Virus record (IMG/VR): IMGVR_UViG_2772190774_000001
Location: 1-64,000 of that record
From: a virus
Taxonomy: Duplodnaviria > Caudoviricetes
Strand: one strand, 5' to 3'
Length of the DNA: 64,000 nt
Positions 4,019 through 64,000 of this stretch are shown here, one piece after another. The position numbers and the translations under genes are program-made. Numbering within the stretch: position 1 is the stretch's first letter; each line of letters opens with the position of its first letter. The notes below the pieces were generated by a model. That model saw nothing but the letters and a program-made list of their open reading frames with translations. It did not search any database and was not told where the DNA came from.

Positions 4019-5637
4019 TGACGACCTACTACGACCACCGCGCAGAGCGGACGATGGCTGAGGCCGAGGCCGACGCCCGCCGCGCTCAGGCGGAGGCGCT
4101 TCGGGTAGAGACCACGCTCCGCCTTGAGCGTGAGCGCCGCCAGATGGAAACCGACCGCGTCCAGCAGGAGCGGCGGGCCCGCGAGGAGCGTGCGCGTAGC
4201 CGCACGGCCCAGCGGGAGAACCGCCGCCGCCAGCGCGAGCAGACACGTGCCGCCCGCCGTGCGGCGATCCGCCGCGGCGCCGGAGCGCTCCGCACCGCCA
4301 CCGTGCAGCGGGTTCCGTTCCTCGTCGGCGGCGTCGCCATGGGCTCCCCCATCGCCATCGCCTGGAACGGCCAGTACCAGTTCGCCGAGCAGATCATGCA
4401 CCTCGGGGCACTGTCCCCCGCCCTGCCGATCGCCCTCGAAGGCGCCGTCTGGTACCTCGCCTACCTCACCCACCGGGCCATCACCCAGCACCTGCCCACC
4501 GTCCGCTACCGGGTCGCGACCTGGGCCCTCGCCGCGGTGGCCGCGACCATGAACTTCTGGCACGGCAGCGCCCCGAAGGGTCTGCCGGCGAACGCCCCGC
4601 AGCAGCTCATCGAGCAGGCCACCCGCGACGCCCAGCAGACCGGCGTGGCCCTGGCCCTGGCGAGTCTCCTCGGGATCGGCCTGTGGGAGCTGACCGTCGG
4701 CCTGACCCAGCACACCGCCTCCCGCCGCTCCCTGACGGAGATCCGCCGCGCCGCCTGGCGCCGCCTGCGCTACCCCCGCCTGTCCTGGCAAGCCGCGTCC
4801 ATCCGGGCCGCCCGCGGCGAGGACTGCACGATCGAGGACGCCTGGGCCGCGGCCTGGGTGGATCGGTACGGCGTCGGGCCTGACGCGCCCCGCCGGGACC
4901 GCCGCCTCGGCCGGAAGGTCACGCGCTACCAGTCGAAGGCCGACCGTAAGGCGGCGAAGGACGGTCGCCTGTCCATCGTCGGCGGGCAGATCGTCGGACG
5001 CCCCTCGCTTGACCCCGCGCCGGCCGACCCGGAAGGCGAGAAGGCCATCGAGCAGCTCCGCTCGTGGGACGGCGCCGCAGCCACCCAGCGTGCCATCGAC
5101 CGCACCGCCGTGAAGATGCTCGCGTTCGGCCACGACTTCATCAACGGGCGACGCGCAGCCTCACCCGAGGCCGTGCCCACGCTGGCACCGCTCAAGCCGC
5201 TGCCGAAGCTGGACACCGTGCGGGCCGACGCCGGCCCTGACCCCCTGTCCACCCTCACGACTCCCCTCACCGACTCCCACACGCCGAACCACCCGGCCGA
5301 CGAGGAAGAGCGTGAGGACGATCGTGAGGAGACCGGCAACCGCCGCACCCCCACTGAGCAGGTCAATCGCGCCGCAGAGGAATGGATCCGTGCAAGGTGC
5401 CGCGGCAGGAACGGCGTAGGCCGGCGCCCCTCTTACCGGGAGGTCGGCGACCGGTACGACCGCAGTGAAACCTGGGGCGGCAACCGTGTGCGTGCGGTGC
5501 AGGAGCGGATGGCGGCCCAGGGCTACGAGTTCCACGACGACGGCACGGTCACCGCGCCGCGCAAGCCCCTCACGGAGTCCGTCACCGCTGTGAACGGCTC
5601 CCGCTCCCACCCTGAGACCGCGACGGAGGTGTCGTGA
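4015..5637 (+). CDS. SpdB-like (DUF2637-like) membrane spread/transfer protein
   Basis: N-terminal coiled coil, about 4 TM segments (LPIALEG..W; N.WH), Pro-rich linker, C-terminal HTH-like segment; lies upstream of TraB. Confidence 0.65.
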   Translation: MMTTYYDHRAERTMAEAEADARRAQAEALRVETTLRLERERRQMETDRVQQERRAREERARSRTAQRENRRRQREQTRAARRAAIRRGAGALRTATVQRVPFLVGGVAMGSPIAIAWNGQYQFAEQIMHLGALSPALPIALEGAVWYLAYLTHRAITQHLPTVRYRVATWALAAVAATMNFWHGSAPKGLPANAPQQLIEQATRDAQQTGVALALASLLGIGLWELTVGLTQHTASRRSLTEIRRAAWRRLRYPRLSWQAASIRAARGEDCTIEDAWAAAWVDRYGVGPDAPRRDRRLGRKVTRYQSKADRKAAKDGRLSIVGGQIVGRPSLDPAPADPEGEKAIEQLRSWDGAAATQRAIDRTAVKMLAFGHDFINGRRAASPEAVPTLAPLKPLPKLDTVRADAGPDPLSTLTTPLTDSHTPNHPADEEEREDDREETGNRRTPTEQVNRAAEEWIRARCRGRNGVGRRPSYREVGDRYDRSETWGGNRVRAVQERMAAQGYEFHDDGTVTAPRKPLTESVTAVNGSRSHPETATEVS

Positions 5638-59709: not shown

Positions 59710-60963
59710 TTAGGCGCTGGCTTCTTCGACGGGGAAGCCGCCGTCCCACACGGCCTGCCACGGCCACGGGGACGAGCGCTGCAAGCGGTGGGGCCAGGCG
59801 CGTTCGTCGCGGTCACCGCGGAACCGCTCCACGAACACCTGCATCGGGTTGTTCGGGTCTTTGCGGAGGGCCAGGCCGAACTCCGGCCAGCGCTGCCACA
59901 CACCGGACCCGAGAGGGCGGAGGGACCGCTGCCCGGACTGCTCCATCGGGGCGTGGGTCTCCAGCCACAGGGCGACGCCGTGCCGCTGGCGGAACCCGTC
60001 GAGGACGCGGGCGACCTGCCCGTTGATCGTCTCGGCCTTCTCCCCCGATTCGAGGAACGCCTTGTACAGGGGGCCCATCGCGACGAAGTCCGGGCGGACC
60101 TGCTCGATGACGCGGTCCACGAGGTACTGGTCGTTCGGCTTACGCAGGTCGATCCCGCCGGGCATCGTCCAGCGCCAGCAGCGGTCGTCGTCCCATCCGG
60201 CATCGTTCCGGCCGAGGCTGACCAGATGGCGGGCCTTGCGGCGGATCAGGGCGGGCGGGTTCTCCAGGTCGAGGTACAGCGTCCGGAACGGCGGAATACG
60301 AGTGCCCCACGAGAACGGGTGCAGCCCCGCGGCGCCCATCACGGTGATCTGCCGCGCCCACGTGGTCTTCCCAGCGCCTTCGGACGCGACGACGATCACG
60401 CGGTCCATGCGCTCCAACACGCCAGGGATCAGCCAGTCGTGGTCCTCGTCGGTCTCGTCCACGAACGAGCCCATCGTGGACAGGCCCGACACGTCGCCGT
60501 CGTCGCCTGTGCGGCGCAGCAGGCTCAGGGAATCCTCGGCGGCCTGCACAAGGTCCTCGGGGGTGGTGTCCGCCTCGTAGGCCATCTCGCCCAGGCGGGA
60601 GAACTCCAGCGCGGCGAGCCGCTTCGACCCGAGCATCCGGACGCGGTTGACGTAGAACCCGGCGTTGGCAGCGGTCGGCACCACGGCCGACAGGTCGTGC
60701 AGGAGCATCGCTTTCTTGCCGGCCGGGTCGAGCTTGCCGATGCGCTCCAGCTCGGCGCGCACGGACACGACGTCGATCGGTTCGCCGCGGCGGCGCAGAT
60801 CCGCGATCGCGATGAAGATTTCCTGGTGGACGGGGCGGTAGAAGTCGTCGGCGCCGAGGTGCCCGAGGGCGACAGCTACGGCGTTCGGCGAGATCAGGCA
60901 CGCGCCGAGGACGCACTGTTCGGCCTCGATGTCGTGCGGCAGGGCCCGGAAGTCGTCGGTCAT
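59710..60963 (-). CDS. DnaB-like replicative helicase (DnaB N-domain + RecA-like AAA_25-type domain)
   Basis: LPHDIEAEQCVLGACL; DDFYRPVHQEIF; Walker A ASEGAGKT; YLDLENP. Confidence 0.85.
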   Translation of the reverse strand: MTDDFRALPHDIEAEQCVLGACLISPNAVAVALGHLGADDFYRPVHQEIFIAIADLRRRGEPIDVVSVRAELERIGKLDPAGKKAMLLHDLSAVVPTAANAGFYVNRVRMLGSKRLAALEFSRLGEMAYEADTTPEDLVQAAEDSLSLLRRTGDDGDVSGLSTMGSFVDETDEDHDWLIPGVLERMDRVIVVASEGAGKTTWARQITVMGAAGLHPFSWGTRIPPFRTLYLDLENPPALIRRKARHLVSLGRNDAGWDDDRCWRWTMPGGIDLRKPNDQYLVDRVIEQVRPDFVAMGPLYKAFLESGEKAETINGQVARVLDGFRQRHGVALWLETHAPMEQSGQRSLRPLGSGVWQRWPEFGLALRKDPNNPMQVFVERFRGDRDERAWPHRLQRSSPWPWQAVWDGGFPVEEASA

Positions 60964-61994
60964 CGGTGGTTGAACTCCCTCGGTGCGACCTCCTGCACGG
61001 CGTCCCACCGCCAGTGGTCGTCATTGCTTGTGGCGGTCTCGTCGTTCCAGCGCTCCCCGTTCAGCCACGTCGTGGGGTGCGGGGTGTACTCGGTGCCGCG
61101 GGCCTGCCGCATCGGGTTGTCCCGGAACCGCTCAGCCGCGGCGACGATCGCCTGCGGGTCGGCCCGCTTGACGGCCTTGACCCAGGCGGCGCGGGCGTGG
61201 CCCTTGTCGACCTTGCGGGGGTACGCCTTCCAGAACGCGACGAAGGCGGGGTCCTGGTCGCTGCCGGGCTGGAAGGTGGGTTTCTTCTGGGCGGCTTCGA
61301 GGTGGATCAAGACTCCGTCGCCGGAGGCGTCGGCATCAGCCGGGGCGGCGGCATCGTCGCCGGGTTCTACCGAAGTACGGTCTTTAACTTCTTCACCTAC
61401 AACAGCAACAACAACGGAGGGTTGGCCCATGGGTTCGCCCGAGGGTTGCTGGAAGGGTTCCGCCAAGGGTTCGCCAGGGGTTCCGGGAACCGTTCCGGGA
61501 AGGGTTGGGCTAACCCTTACGGGAACCCTTGGCCTAAGGGTTTCGATAACCCTTCCGATCGACTCCCGCATCTCGTCGGCCTTCTTGCCAGACAGGCCAG
61601 CGACCGGCAGCCGGGCGAACTCCTCAGCGAGCGTCGCCCGGATCGCCTGAGACCTGACCATCGAGGCGTCTCGGATGATGCTCTTCAGGACGTTGGGGAT
61701 CTTCCAGGCGTCGTCCCAGCGGATGTAGGTGCGGACGAGGATCTCGTCATGCTCCTCATCCACCACCACGTAACGGCGCTCGTGCAGTACCGAGAGGTCC
61801 GCCTTGAGATCGGGCACCGTGAAGTCAACGGCGCAGCCGGTGAGCCGTCGATCGGTAGTGGTGACGACGCCGGCGAAGGTGAGTTCCGGCTGACTGATCA
61901 GCGTGAAGTACAGCCACTGCTGATGGCGTGTCAGCGAGCGGAAGTCGGCGTCGGCCCAGATCTCGTTGTAGATCTTGGCGAAGCTTCCGGCCAC
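60960..61994 (-). CDS. Phage replication initiator (lambda O/DnaD-like architecture)
   Basis: N-terminal wHTH (IWADADFRSL..LYF.LIS); low-complexity linker; C-domain FVAFWKAYPRKVDKG.A..AW; PHPTTWLNGERW. Confidence 0.8.
   Translation of the reverse strand: MAGSFAKIYNEIWADADFRSLTRHQQWLYFTLISQPELTFAGVVTTTDRRLTGCAVDFTVPDLKADLSVLHERRYVVVDEEHDEILVRTYIRWDDAWKIPNVLKSIIRDASMVRSQAIRATLAEEFARLPVAGLSGKKADEMRESIGRVIETLRPRVPVRVSPTLPGTVPGTPGEPLAEPFQQPSGEPMGQPSVVVAVVGEEVKDRTSVEPGDDAAAPADADASGDGVLIHLEAAQKKPTFQPGSDQDPAFVAFWKAYPRKVDKGHARAAWVKAVKRADPQAIVAAAERFRDNPMRQARGTEYTPHPTTWLNGERWNDETATSNDDHWRWDAVQEVAPREFNHR
61418..61554. repeat. Iteron cluster (about 10 copies of AAGGGTT-like heptamer, both orientations) inside rep gene; candidate origin
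   Basis: AGGGTT 61418, 61442; AAGGGTT 61453, 61465, 61500, 61536; AACCCTT 61512, 61524, 61548; adjacent AT-richer tract 61381-61415. Confidence 0.65.
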
Positions 61995-62143
61995 GGTGGG
62001 TGCTCCAGGTGATTCGAGGTTGAGGGGACAGCCCGATTGCTGAGGGGCGGAGTGAGGGTCAGGTCGTGCGTCGGTTCTTGGGCATGGCAAATAGACCCCC
62101 TGTCGGGTGCGATTCCCCTGACCACGCGGGGACTTGCGCCCAG

Positions 62144-62216
62144 CGTGTATATCCACGAGCATAGCCATCATGGATATACACGGCAAGGTTGCTGACCAGA
62201 CCCTTGGATATGCACG
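62144..62216. promoter_or_regulatory. Divergent promoter region with operator repeats
   Basis: CGTGTATATCCA 62144-55 / TGGATATACACG 62171-82 inverted repeat plus variant TGGATATGCACG 62205-16. Confidence 0.65.
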
Positions 62217-62223
62217 GGCTACG

Positions 62224-62424
62224 ATGTGCCACGTGAAGGACACCCACACGCCGCACCGCCCCATCCGGGTCGAGGACGACCTGTGGGAGGAGTTCGGCCG
62301 TCTTGTCGGCCCCCGGAACCGCTCGGCGGTGATCCGGGAGTTCATCCGCTGGTTCGTGCGTGAGCGTGGGGCGAAGCTCCCCGAGCGTCCGCCGCGGCAG
62401 GAGCTCGCCGCCGGCGAGTCCTGA
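62224..62424 (+). CDS. Ribbon-helix-helix (Arc/ParG-like) regulator
   Basis: TPHRPIRVEDDLWEEFG..VG..NRSAVIREFIRWFV. Confidence 0.8.
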   Translation: MCHVKDTHTPHRPIRVEDDLWEEFGRLVGPRNRSAVIREFIRWFVRERGAKLPERPPRQELAAGES

Positions 62425-62483
62425 TGTGTCACCCCCGGGGCCGGTCACCAAGTGACCGGCCCCCTTCGCATGCCCGCGCCCGA

Positions 62484-62954
62484 TCACGACCGGGGCCACC
62501 TCTCGACGTGGATCCCGGCCTTCTCCGCCCGGTCGATGGCGTCGCTCGCCCCGTGTGAGCCGTGCGGTTTCGGCTTGCGGCAAGTCCGCTGCGTGCACGG
62601 CAGGACGAACGCCAAGCAGACGTCGGCGCCGAGGTCGACCATGAGCTGGTTGCGGAGATGGCCGGCCGTCGGGCAGTACGTCGACCCGTCGCGCCGCTTC
62701 AGGCGGTGGGTGGGGGTGCACTTGGGTCCGGCGCAGGTGTCCCAGTCCGCGGGGTGGCGCTCCCGGGTGATGCCCAGGTGGGTGAAGCGGCGGCACCACC
62801 AGTCGGCGATGGCGTCCGCTCCTGTGGGGCAGGCGCCGTGGACGACGACCATGGGGCCGTTCGCCTGGTAGCGGGCCTGGACAAGGGCGTCCCGGACGAC
62901 GTCGAGGTCCTTCCATGACCGGGACCCGGTGATGAGCACGCGGTAGGGGCTCAC
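62484..62954 (-). CDS. SLOG-family (DUF2493/YspA-like) protein
   Basis: RVLITGSRSW; VVHGACPTGAD; HPADW; AGHLRNQLMV; CLAF; HGA. Confidence 0.85.
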   Translation of the reverse strand: MSPYRVLITGSRSWKDLDVVRDALVQARYQANGPMVVVHGACPTGADAIADWWCRRFTHLGITRERHPADWDTCAGPKCTPTHRLKRRDGSTYCPTAGHLRNQLMVDLGADVCLAFVLPCTQRTCRKPKPHGSHGASDAIDRAEKAGIHVERWPRS

Positions 62955-62975: not shown

Positions 62976-63703
62976 GGCGCGGGCGGGTGCGGATTGGTCA
63001 GGACAGGTCAGAGAAGGCATGTCGCGGCGGGTGTGGGAGGTCCCAGGGATGAGCCAGGGAACGGGTAGTCGGGGTGGGCCGGTCCGGGTGGGGTTGGCTT
63101 GTCGGCACGGGCCGGGTGGGGATGGCATGGCACGTCGGCGAGGACAGAGGTGGGGTGGCGAGGTCGGTGATGGCCCGGGTAGGCGAGTCGGCATGAGTCG
63201 GGTCGGGGCGCTCGTGTGCAGGACTGGCATGTCGGGTCGGGTTGCCAGGTGGTAAGGCTCGGCTCGTCGGGCTGGGCTGAGATGCGGCGGTTGTGACATG
63301 TCGGCACGTCTCGGCCTGGGTTGGGCTGTCGGCTTGGAGAGTCGAGAAGCGGCGAGGTATGTCGGCACGGCCTGGTTCGGGACGGAACGGATAGTCGCCA
63401 TGGGGTCGGGAGGTACGGCTCCGGCGCGGCTTGAGCGAGGCATGTCGGACAGGCGCGGCAGGAGTGGGCTGACTCGGGGAGACTTGGCTTGTCGGCGTGT
63501 TGAGGGAAGCCGTGGCCTGGCATGTCGCCGTGGCTAGGCAGGCGGAGGCTTGGCTTGTCGGCGAGGCTCGGCGAGGACGGGCGTGGGATGGACTGTCGGC
63601 AAGCGAAGGAAGGGTTGGGCTTGTCGGCGAGGCTGGGCCAGGACGGCGGTGGGGTGGACTGTCGGCGTGAGGCGGAGGCAGGGCTGAACAGGCTCGCGTA
63701 GTC
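62976..63703. ncRNA. Array of GGNNN pentamers punctuated by GTC (18 units); candidate guide-RNA array
   Basis: GTC at 63021, 63068, 63101, 63134, 63187, 63231, 63266, 63300, 63328, 63361, 63394, 63444, 63491, 63524, 63557, 63595, 63623, 63661, 63701; 11 of 18 spacings equal 3+5n; transcribed strand unknown. Confidence 0.6.
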
Positions 63704-63774
63704 GCATGGGCTAGCCGCACGAGCGGCGTCGCAGACGTTCACCAGAACCCCCAGGTACAGTCAGTTGGTGGGAG

Positions 63775-63799
63775 GGGCCCCAGCCGTGTGCTGGGGCCC
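63775..63799 (-). terminator. Hairpin between the RAMP-like gene and the array
   Basis: GGGCCCCAGC-CGTGT-GCTGGGGCCC, 11 nt after the stop codon. Confidence 0.6.
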
Positions 63800-63810: not shown

Positions 63811-63999
63811 TCAGGCCCGGTCGAACGCGAGCAGCTCGAACCGGCCATCGGACCGGCCGCGGTCGGAGCCGATGCCGATCTGCTCGCCGGCCTGCCAGAT
63901 GCGGGACCACGCCTGCATGGGGAGGAAGTCGTCCCGGACCCGGAGGGTGAAGGTCAGCTCGGGTTCCTGGACGTACTCGACGCGGTTGATCGACGAGCG
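63811..63999 (-). CDS. 3' end of a RAMP/Cas7-like protein (5' part outside window)
   Basis: My translation: RSSINRVEYVQEPELTFTLRVRDDFLPMQAWSRIWQAGEQIGIGSDRGRSDGRFELLAFDRA*; beta-helix-G-loop G.G..R...GRF typical of RAMP C-termini. Confidence 0.6.
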   Translation of the reverse strand, partial: RSSINRVEYVQEPELTFTLRVRDDFLPMQAWSRIWQAGEQIGIGSDRGRSDGRFELLAFDRA

Positions 64000-64000
64000 C

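What the first reader, a model, noticed from the sequence alone, without database searches (positions are those of the whole stretch)
62976..63703. Pentamer-periodic array: GTC + (GGNNN)5-10, 18 units; candidate programmable guide RNAs
Seen: e.g. GTC GGCAC GGCCT GGTTC GGGAC GGAAC GGATA GTC (63361-63396) and GTC GGCGA GGCTC GGCGA GGACG GGCGT GGGAT GGACT GTC (63557-63597). Six units are exactly 33 nt and 11 of 18 fit 3+5n. The fixed positions are interleaved with variable ones and no two units are identical, unlike CRISPR repeat-spacer arrays, satellites or coding repeats (period 5, not 3). In the gene-sense strand it reads (NNNCC)n-GAC. Inference: each unit is a small RNA whose fixed bases seat successive protein subunits while the variable bases form a gapped targeting code. 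This recalls recently reported phage RAMP + GGY/NN-repeat ('VIPR'-type) systems, from memory and unverified; here the third base is not restricted to pyrimidines.
Basis: partly seen in the sequence, partly recalled or inferred. Interest (0 to 1): 0.92.

Follow-up and report, generated by a model that had tools for sequence, protein, structure and literature searches.

The report
VIPR guide-RNA array in an actinobacterial prophage
The five-base-periodic tract is real and is the guide-RNA array of a VIPR system (a phage-borne, CRISPR-like RNA-guided DNA silencer first described in 2026), lying next to its Cas7-like protein gene; it is a further example of a known kind, and which DNA strand gives the RNA is still open.

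Summary
Window 62976-63703 is the only five-base-periodic tract in this 73.7-kb provirus. It is built of GTC + (GG-Y-NN)n units, mostly 28, 33 or 38 nt long (5n+3).

The gene just upstream on the minus strand (63811-64524, running past the window end) encodes a 237-aa protein. Its AlphaFold model (pLDDT 90) matches Cas7/Csm3/Cmr4 proteins (Z up to 12.6). Its family profile matches the validated SUSP1 Vipr family (HHalign 93%, E 3e-7).

All 27 related loci fetched, and a Microcystis phage, carry the same kind of array beside the homologue. Most also carry a conserved 143-aa partner gene.

The GG positions are conserved. The NN positions have near-uniform base composition in a 69% GC genome and vary most between relatives.

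Three things were not shown: transcription, processing into unit-length RNAs, and targets. Gapped-code target searches stayed at control level.

One oddity stands out. In 43 of 44 arrays in a wider metagenome sample, and in all the close loci, the G-rich strand lies opposite the vipr gene. Arrays that lie upstream run to within 16-26 nt of the vipr start codon. The RNA may therefore be the gene-sense strand, read as RCC/NN. Polarity is unresolved.

The parts
62976..63703 (.). Pentamer-periodic array. On the + strand it reads GTC-(GG-Y-NN)n. On the gene-sense (-) strand it reads GAC-NN-(RCC-NN)n-1-RCC. It has 24 GTCG-delimited segments, 18 of them 23 nt or longer.
   Evidence: Homologous arrays lie beside every homologue of the neighbouring gene.
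62976..63020 (.). Vipr-distal end of the array: nine in-phase pentamers without GTC punctuation, running to about 10 nt from the ribosome-binding site of the next minus-strand gene (start codon at 62954).
   Evidence: Identical in the closest relative L003.
63068..63133 (.). Two well-formed 33-nt units (63068-63100 and 63101-63133), each GTC + 6 pentamers.
63361..63393 (.). 33-nt unit. It differs from its L003 counterpart at two positions, both the fifth base of a pentamer (an N position).
63491..63660 (.). Run of five regular units of 33, 33, 38, 28 and 38 nt. The two 38-nt units are 87% alike.
63709..63730 (.). Conserved box at the vipr-proximal end of the array. On the + strand it reads GGCTA-GCCGC-loop-GCGGC-GTC. 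It contains a 5-bp stem whose innermost pair co-varies (T-A, C-G, G-C) among loci.
   Evidence: 22 of 25 loci; one further case, L128.
63775..63799 (.). Perfect 10-bp GC-rich inverted repeat between the vipr stop codon and the array. It is terminator-like but has no clear U-tract on either strand.
   Evidence: Present in about half of the related loci.
63811..64000 (-). 3' part of the vipr-like gene. The whole gene is 63811-64524 on the contig and encodes 237 aa; it runs past the window end. A 143-aa partner gene at 64521-64952 overlaps its start codon (ATGA).

Best explanation
This is a VIPR (Viral Interference Programmable Repeat) locus in a provirus of a Streptosporangiaceae-type actinobacterium. 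It consists of a two-gene operon (a 143-aa accessory gene and a 237-aa Vipr gene) followed by an array of about 730 nt.

Inferred by homology to the SUSP1 system:
- The array transcript is coated by Vipr, one protomer per five bases.
- The fixed trinucleotide of each pentamer is buried in the protein. The two variable bases are displayed.
- The displayed bases read double-stranded DNA in a gapped code (two bases read, one skipped).
- The bound complex silences genes of competing mobile elements.

My own inference:
- Every 5-8 pentamers, a three-base GTC/GAC punctuation breaks the lattice.
- Filaments therefore end there, and the exposed linker is cut.
- This would yield guides of about 28, 33 or 38 nt with no individual tails.

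Which strand is the RNA is unresolved. I put about 50-55% on the gene-sense C-rich strand, co-transcribed with vipr and read as RCC/NN. I put about 45-50% on the G-rich antisense strand, read as canonical GGY/NN.
For: **Protein**
- The AF2 model has pLDDT 90.4 and pTM 0.83. It shows an RRM core, a helical insert, a long beta-hairpin and a glycine-rich loop before the last strand.
- The top Foldseek and VIA-align hits are all CRISPR Cas7-type RAMPs: 6ifl_F at E 1e-7, 9g9a_D at Z 12.6, 6s6b_I at Z 11.7.
- HHalign of its family against the SUSP1-type Vipr family gives 93.2%, E 2.9e-7, over 136 columns including the G-loop.
- SUSP1 ALH47069 carries the C173-R179 motif named in the cryo-EM paper.

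**Context**
- The contig is a provirus.
- No CRISPR-like repeats were found.
- The protein matches no Pfam, NCBIfam, PADLOC or PHROG family.

**Array**
- Period 5 with no period 3.
- Base composition at N4 and N5 is uniform, and C is enriched at position 3.
- Substitution rates between close relatives by pentamer position: G1 1.2%, G2 5.8%, then 10.3%, 13.6% and 8.5%.
- Relatives differ by whole-unit insertions, deletions and replacements.

**Conserved linkage**
- 27 of 27 related loci, Microcystis phage Mae-JY09 and 44 arrays in 80 distant metagenome loci keep the protein and array together.
- The partner gene is conserved in 23 of 25 loci.

**Weak hint of expression**
- A root metatranscriptome holds array-like contigs from relatives.
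Against: - No strand-resolved RNA evidence could be obtained.
- The G-loop residues that read G1 and G2 in SUSP1 Vipr (D177 and W178) are not conserved here; they align with S/A220 and a variable residue.
- The G-rich strand is opposite to vipr, unlike in SUSP1.
- Units carry only 5-8 dinucleotides, against 9-16 in type II. That gives little specificity in a 9-Mb host genome.
- There is no 3' tail for each guide.
- The accessory protein has no detectable similarity to SUSP1 vap1.
Confidence: 0.85

Rival explanations
1. The array is a cis-acting RNA element of the operon, not a set of targeting guides. It would be a long untranslated C-rich, G-poor leader or intergenic RNA: a Rho-loading (polarity) site, or an autoregulatory binding platform that the RAMP protein coats to control its own and downstream expression.
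For: - The sense strand is C-rich and G-poor in 43 of 44 arrays in the wide sample and in all close loci.
- Arrays sit in the vipr 5' leader, or between vipr and the next co-directional gene, right up to ribosome-binding sites.
Against: - A pure binding platform gives no reason for two positions of every pentamer to have uniform, fast-changing composition, nor for cassette-like unit turnover.
- Homology to a protein shown to use such RNAs as DNA-targeting guides (papers read).
Confidence: 0.07
2. The tract acts as DNA, not RNA. It would be a replication-origin-like or G-quadruplex/R-loop-prone region of the phage early region, bound by the neighbouring protein.
For: - It lies about 0.5 kb from replication genes, a DnaB-like helicase and a replication protein at 59710-62432.
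- It has strong G/C strand asymmetry and GG every 5 nt.
Against: - The array follows the RAMP gene, not the replication genes. Downstream neighbours differ among loci, and the pair also occurs in a cyanophage and in unrelated metagenome contexts.
- The partner protein has an RNA-binding RAMP fold.
Confidence: 0.03
3. The tract is protein-coding on the minus strand (two overlapping open frames of 240 and 244 aa rich in Pro, Ser, Thr and Arg), or it is a chance composition effect.
For: Two of three minus-strand frames are open across the array.
Against: - There is no period-3 signal (lag 3 z=-2.6) against strong period 5.
- Relatives differ by gaps that are not multiples of three.
- The repeat falls in all frames.
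- The pattern exceeds shuffles and the rest of the genome by more than 5 SD.
Confidence: 0.01

Closest known systems
Type II VIPR of Escherichia phage SUSP1 and the Pseudomonas fulva prophage (bioRxiv 10.64898/2026.04.26.720920; structures in 10.64898/2026.04.26.720927)
   Same: - A single-RRM RAMP protein with a G-loop and thumb, homologous by profile.
- A five-base lattice with two conserved G, a pyrimidine-biased third base and two hypervariable bases.
- A small two-gene operon carried by a phage or prophage.
   Different: - The protein is 237 aa against 195 aa, and the G-contacting D177/W178 are not conserved.
- Units have 5-8 pentamers against 9-16.
- No guide has its own promoter or 3' tail/pseudoknot.
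- Units are separated only by a 3-nt GTC.
- The G-rich strand is opposite to vipr here but the same strand in SUSP1.
- The accessory protein is unrelated to vap1.
Other VIPR types with relaxed repeats (NNNGG, YNNNG, NNNNG) and 'staggered' arrays of abutting vrRNAs (same preprint, methods and figs S17-S18)
   Same: - The third base is relaxed.
- Guides abut, so that the end of one marks the start of the next.
- The array is long and lies beside vipr.
   Different: The figures and tables are not held here. I could not check whether this clade is one of the seven types, whether the 5n+3 GTC grammar is described, or which strand the authors assign.
Non-canonical VIPR-like period-5 arrays found with a genomic language model (bioRxiv 10.64898/2026.10.21.760802)
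   Same: Period-5 arrays beside a Vipr-like fold, with fixed trinucleotides other than GGY: GAC/NN, CAC/NN, WGT/NN and TGH/NN.
   Different: An RCC/NN scaffold, which is the gene-sense reading here, is not among those named in the text.
Cas7 backbone subunits of class 1 CRISPR effectors (Csm3, Cmr4, Csf2, Cas7-11)
   Same: The same fold (Z 10-12.6). These proteins polymerise along a guide RNA with a fixed periodicity.
   Different: There is no CRISPR repeat-spacer array and no other cas gene. The period is 5 nt rather than 6. The locus sits in a prophage early region.

Membership tests
VIPR system | Vipr protein: a single-RRM RAMP with a glycine-rich loop and thumb, found outside any CRISPR-cas locus | tested here: met
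   - AF2 model pLDDT 90.4.
- Cas7-type RAMPs fill the top 30 structural hits, with Z up to 12.6.
- HHalign to the SUSP1-type Vipr family: 93.2%, E 2.9e-7.
- No CRISPR-like tandem repeats in the window.
VIPR system | Tandem five-base repeats of a fixed trinucleotide (GGY or a related consensus) plus NN, at least 4 units long, in the intergenic DNA flanking vipr | tested here: met
   - Lag-5 z=6.4.
- Runs of 5-9 in-phase GG pentamers.
- Position 3 is C 0.48 and T 0.15.
- The array begins about 80 nt after the vipr stop codon.
VIPR system | NN positions hypervariable while the scaffold is conserved | tested here: met
   - N4 and N5 base composition is 0.22-0.28 for each base in a 69% GC genome.
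- Substitution rates are 1.2% and 5.8% at G1 and G2, against 8.5-13.6% at positions 3-5, in 9 close pairs.
VIPR system | An accessory vap gene in a minimal operon with vipr | tested here: inconclusive
   - A 143-aa gene overlaps the vipr start codon and is conserved in 23 of 25 loci.
- It matches no known family and not SUSP1 vap1.
VIPR system | Viral or proviral location | tested here: met
   - The contig is an IMG/VR provirus, 86% complete.
- 13 relatives are in IMG/VR and one is in a cultured cyanophage.
VIPR system | vrRNAs are expressed and co-purify with Vipr | not testable with these tools
   Only unstranded contigs of a root metatranscriptome cover array-like sequence from relatives.
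VIPR system | NN dinucleotides match natural DNA targets under the one-base-skip rule | tested here: inconclusive
   - 85 guides against 815 kb of related proviruses, with skips of 0-3: no excess over shuffles.
- Paired adjacent units: none.
- Three guides against 5 or 401 host-family genomes: control level.
- Power is low for guides with only 12-14 informative bases.
VIPR type II (SUSP1-like) | Each vrRNA has 9-16 repeats, its own conserved 3' tail, and lies on the vipr strand | tested here: not met
   - Units have 5-8 repeats and no tails.
- There is one conserved hairpin box per array.
- The G-rich strand is opposite to vipr.
CRISPR-Cas | A repeat-spacer array (period about 60-75 nt) with cas1/cas2 or an effector gene set | tested here: not met
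   No such repeats were found. The RAMP gene stands alone with one small partner.

The most novel reading that the evidence does not exclude
In this large Vipr clade the guide is the gene-sense, C-rich transcript. It is co-transcribed with vipr as a long leader or trailer and read as GAC-NN-(RCC-NN)n, the mirror image of the canonical GGY/NN scaffold. Guides are cut out at three-base lattice breaks instead of each carrying its own promoter and tail.

If true, this would be a VIPR variant with a different base read-out and a polycistronic, protection-defined way of maturing its guides.
Probability: 0.45. Interest if true: 0.65.

Novelty: new member of a known kind. Interest (0 to 1): 0.42.

Why it matters
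VIPR is a newly described RNA-guided DNA-recognition system with a non-contiguous code. Only Escherichia and Pseudomonas phage systems have been studied in depth.

This locus belongs to a large, uncharacterised clade: 692 clusters at 50% identity. Members occur in actinobacterial prophages and in soil and sediment metagenomes, with one in a cyanophage.

The clade has a compact grammar: 5n+3 units, a single terminal hairpin and its own accessory protein. It also shows a strict co-orientation that questions which strand is the guide. Settling that by stranded small-RNA sequencing would show whether Vipr proteins can read a CC scaffold. It would also show how tail-less guides are matured. Both bear on using VIPR as a programmable tool in high-GC bacteria.

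Tried and rejected
**Target searches, all at control level**
- 85 guides of 6 or more pentamers against 11 whole related proviruses (815 kb, arrays masked), with N4N5, N3N4 or N3-5 as the informative bases and skips of 0-3.
- 31 adjacent unit pairs joined with gaps of 0-7.
- A 22-base guide from L009 against 401 family genomes with up to 3 mismatches: one hit, chance level.
- Two of the window's own 7-unit guides against 5 host genomes: 4 hits against 6 in the control, and 36 against 29.

**RNA evidence**
- Only Logan contigs were on offer. The metatranscriptome contigs cannot give strand or ends.

**Signals in the sequence**
- Promoter and terminator consensus scans found none.
- Rfam gave only a sub-threshold chance hit.

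**Polarity by G-U pairs in the conserved hairpin**
- An IMG/VR pattern scan returned mostly chance matches and only 2 real boxes.

**Distant loci**
- Loci fetched through single representatives were too short, or none were found.

**Accessory protein**
- The protein Atlas search gave nothing above chance.
- It shows no similarity to the cyanophage's upstream protein.

**PDB**
- The sequence search found no Vipr entry.

Full report
**What is there**

The window is bases 1-64000 of a 73,672-bp IMG/VR provirus. Bases 62976-63703 are 48% G and 21% C on the + strand.

Identity between bases five apart is far above shuffles: z=6.4 at lag 5, 3.4 at lag 10, 4.6 at lag 33 and 4.7 at lag 66. Lag 3 is depleted. 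No other 300-nt window of the provirus comes near this signal. The lag-5 excess is 0.13-0.20 inside the array and -0.01 +/- 0.026 elsewhere.

Splitting at GTCG gives 24 segments. Eighteen are 23 nt or longer, five are exactly 33 nt, and ten of the 18 have length 5n+3 (p 9e-4).

**The neighbouring genes**

The window ends inside a minus-strand gene. On the full contig it runs from 63811 to 64524 and encodes 237 aa. A 143-aa gene at 64521-64952 overlaps its start codon.

The 237-aa protein matches no Pfam, PHROG, NCBIfam or PADLOC family and no PDB sequence. It does have 346 close relatives, all annotated as hypothetical, in Microbispora, Nonomuraea, Streptosporangium, Actinomadura and metagenomes. 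An exhaustive search found 692 clusters at 50% identity.

An AlphaFold2 model built on 64 diverse sequences is confident: pLDDT 90.4, pTM 0.83. It shows these elements:
- an RRM core;
- a helical insert after the first strand;
- a long beta-hairpin;
- a glycine-rich loop before the last strand.

Foldseek and the Foldseek-independent VIA-align search both return CRISPR Cas7-type RAMPs almost exclusively. Examples are Csm3 9g9a_D at Z 12.6, Cmr4 6s6b_I at Z 11.7, Cas7-11, type VII Cas7 and Csf2.

**What is known**

VIPR systems were described in 2026 preprints. A Vipr RAMP protein polymerises on vrRNAs made of GGY/NN pentamers, one protomer per repeat. The GGY is buried and the NN dinucleotides are displayed. 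The NN bases pair with double-stranded DNA while every third target base is skipped, and the bound complex silences competing phages and satellites.

The first paper reports seven types, relaxed repeats (NNNGG and others) and 'staggered' arrays of abutting vrRNAs. A fourth preprint finds 99 period-5 clusters, 21 of them with other fixed trinucleotides.

**Direct test of kinship**

I located the SUSP1 locus in KT454805.2. ALH47069 (195 aa) carries the C173-R179 G-loop residues named in the cryo-EM paper. Its GGYNN repeats flank it on the same strand.

A profile of 33 SUSP1-type Viprs matches the profile of this family at 93.2% probability and E 2.9e-7. The match spans 136 columns, from the first RRM helix to the G-loop.
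- R222 aligns with R179.
- The residues that read the two guanines in SUSP1 (D177 and W178) align with S/A220 and a variable residue.

**Comparative evidence for the array**

All 27 loci fetched through the protein have a lag-5-periodic tract starting right after the homologue. These are 13 IMG/VR proviruses and 14 genomes of six genera plus a MAG. The tracts are 320 to about 4000 nt long.

Microcystis phage Mae-JY09 has a homologue at 34% identity (E 1e-20), followed by the same kind of array.

- **Composition.** Within strict GG chains, position 3 is C 0.48, T 0.15, G 0.24, A 0.13. Positions 4 and 5 are 0.22-0.28 for every base, although the genome is 69% GC.
- **Unit length.** Over 24 arrays, 41% of 339 segments have length 5n+3 (p 2.5e-18). 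The commonest lengths are 33, 28, 38 and 43 nt. The pentamer frame stops just before GTC and restarts just after it.
- **Substitution.** Between close relatives the rate is 1.2% at G1 and 5.8% at G2, then 10.3%, 13.6% and 8.5% at positions 3-5.
- **Turnover.** Whole units are inserted, lost or replaced at the GTC borders. The same is seen in metagenome contigs.
- **Partner gene.** The 143-aa gene sits directly upstream in 23 of 25 actinobacterial loci. The downstream SLOG-family gene does not.
- **Hairpin box.** A conserved box with a co-varying 5-bp stem marks the vipr-proximal end of 22 of 25 arrays.

**Polarity**

The G-rich strand is opposite to vipr in all close loci. SUSP1 vrRNAs share the vipr strand.

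I sampled 80 distant metagenome loci of the wider family. Arrays lie downstream of the gene in 26 loci and upstream in 18. In 43 of these 44, the array is C-rich on the gene-sense strand. None is G-rich.

Evidence for gene-sense transcription:
- Upstream arrays run to within 16-26 nt of the vipr start codon, with only the ribosome-binding site in between.
- Many downstream arrays run up to the ribosome-binding site of the next co-directional gene, or are followed by a strong hairpin.
- The sense, C-rich RNA must therefore exist, and there is little room for conserved antisense promoters.

Evidence for the G-rich strand:
- It reads exactly as the canonical G-G-Y-N-N, with G1 the most conserved base.
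- The hairpin box would then be a 3' tail, as in type II.

I regard polarity as open, at about even odds. In the sense reading the grammar is GAC-NN-(RCC-NN)n-1-RCC.

**Function not shown**

No stranded RNA data could be had. Target searches under skips of 0-3 and several choices of informative bases gave nothing above shuffled or reversed controls. Guides with only 12-14 informative bases give little power. The accessory protein remains uncharacterised.

**Verdict**

The finding is real and was correctly read. It is a VIPR locus of a large, unstudied clade, so it is a new member of a known kind. The scan has reported VIPR arrays on other DNA before and first-stage notes exist on this same family.

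Two points are of specialist interest. One is the punctuated 5n+3 grammar. The other is the strict gene-sense C-richness, which may mean a mirror-image RCC/NN scaffold.

Noticed in passing
window 62484-62954 (-): The gene just downstream of the array encodes a 156-aa SLOG-family protein (Pfam YAcAr, E 2e-14) with a Cys-rich C-terminal half. It is present after the array in only a few related loci, so it is not part of the system.
   Followed up: partly
L072 (Microcystis phage Mae-JY09, PP395641.1 37713-38976): A cultured cyanophage carries a homologue of the Vipr-like protein (34% identity). About 400 nt of CCGAC-punctuated C-rich array and a 12-bp hairpin follow it, at the very end of the linear genome. 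All are annotated as hypothetical or left unannotated.
   Followed up: partly
L022 about 4850-4930 (Streptosporangium sp. genome locus): One unit of that array is a run of ten identical GGCTT pentamers. It looks like a slipped or expanded guide of no information content.
   Followed up: no
L014 1850-5800 and L015 4831-6820: Two more distant relatives have period-5 arrays of about 2 to 4 kb, far longer than the 0.3-1 kb usual in this clade.
   Followed up: no
L201 and L202, within about 100 nt upstream of the vipr start codon: Upstream arrays in some metagenome loci contain an internal Shine-Dalgarno-like AAAGGAGAC between units. The meaning is unknown.
   Followed up: no
L079 1375-1772: A distant clade (29% identity) has units punctuated by TTGCGAC, with only one strongly conserved C per pentamer. 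This would match the NNNNG-type repeat mentioned in the VIPR preprint. A strong hairpin follows the array on the sense strand.
   Followed up: partly
window 62976-63703, minus strand: The gene-sense transcript of the array would be about 730 nt of untranslated, C-rich, G-poor RNA inside an operon. That is the composition expected of a strong Rho-loading site. Coating by the protein could therefore also control read-through into the replication genes. This is speculation.
   Followed up: no
window 61427-61506: A 35-nt tandem repeat (2.2 copies, 80% match) lies inside the 490-aa open reading frame (60960-62432, minus strand) upstream of the SLOG gene.
   Followed up: no
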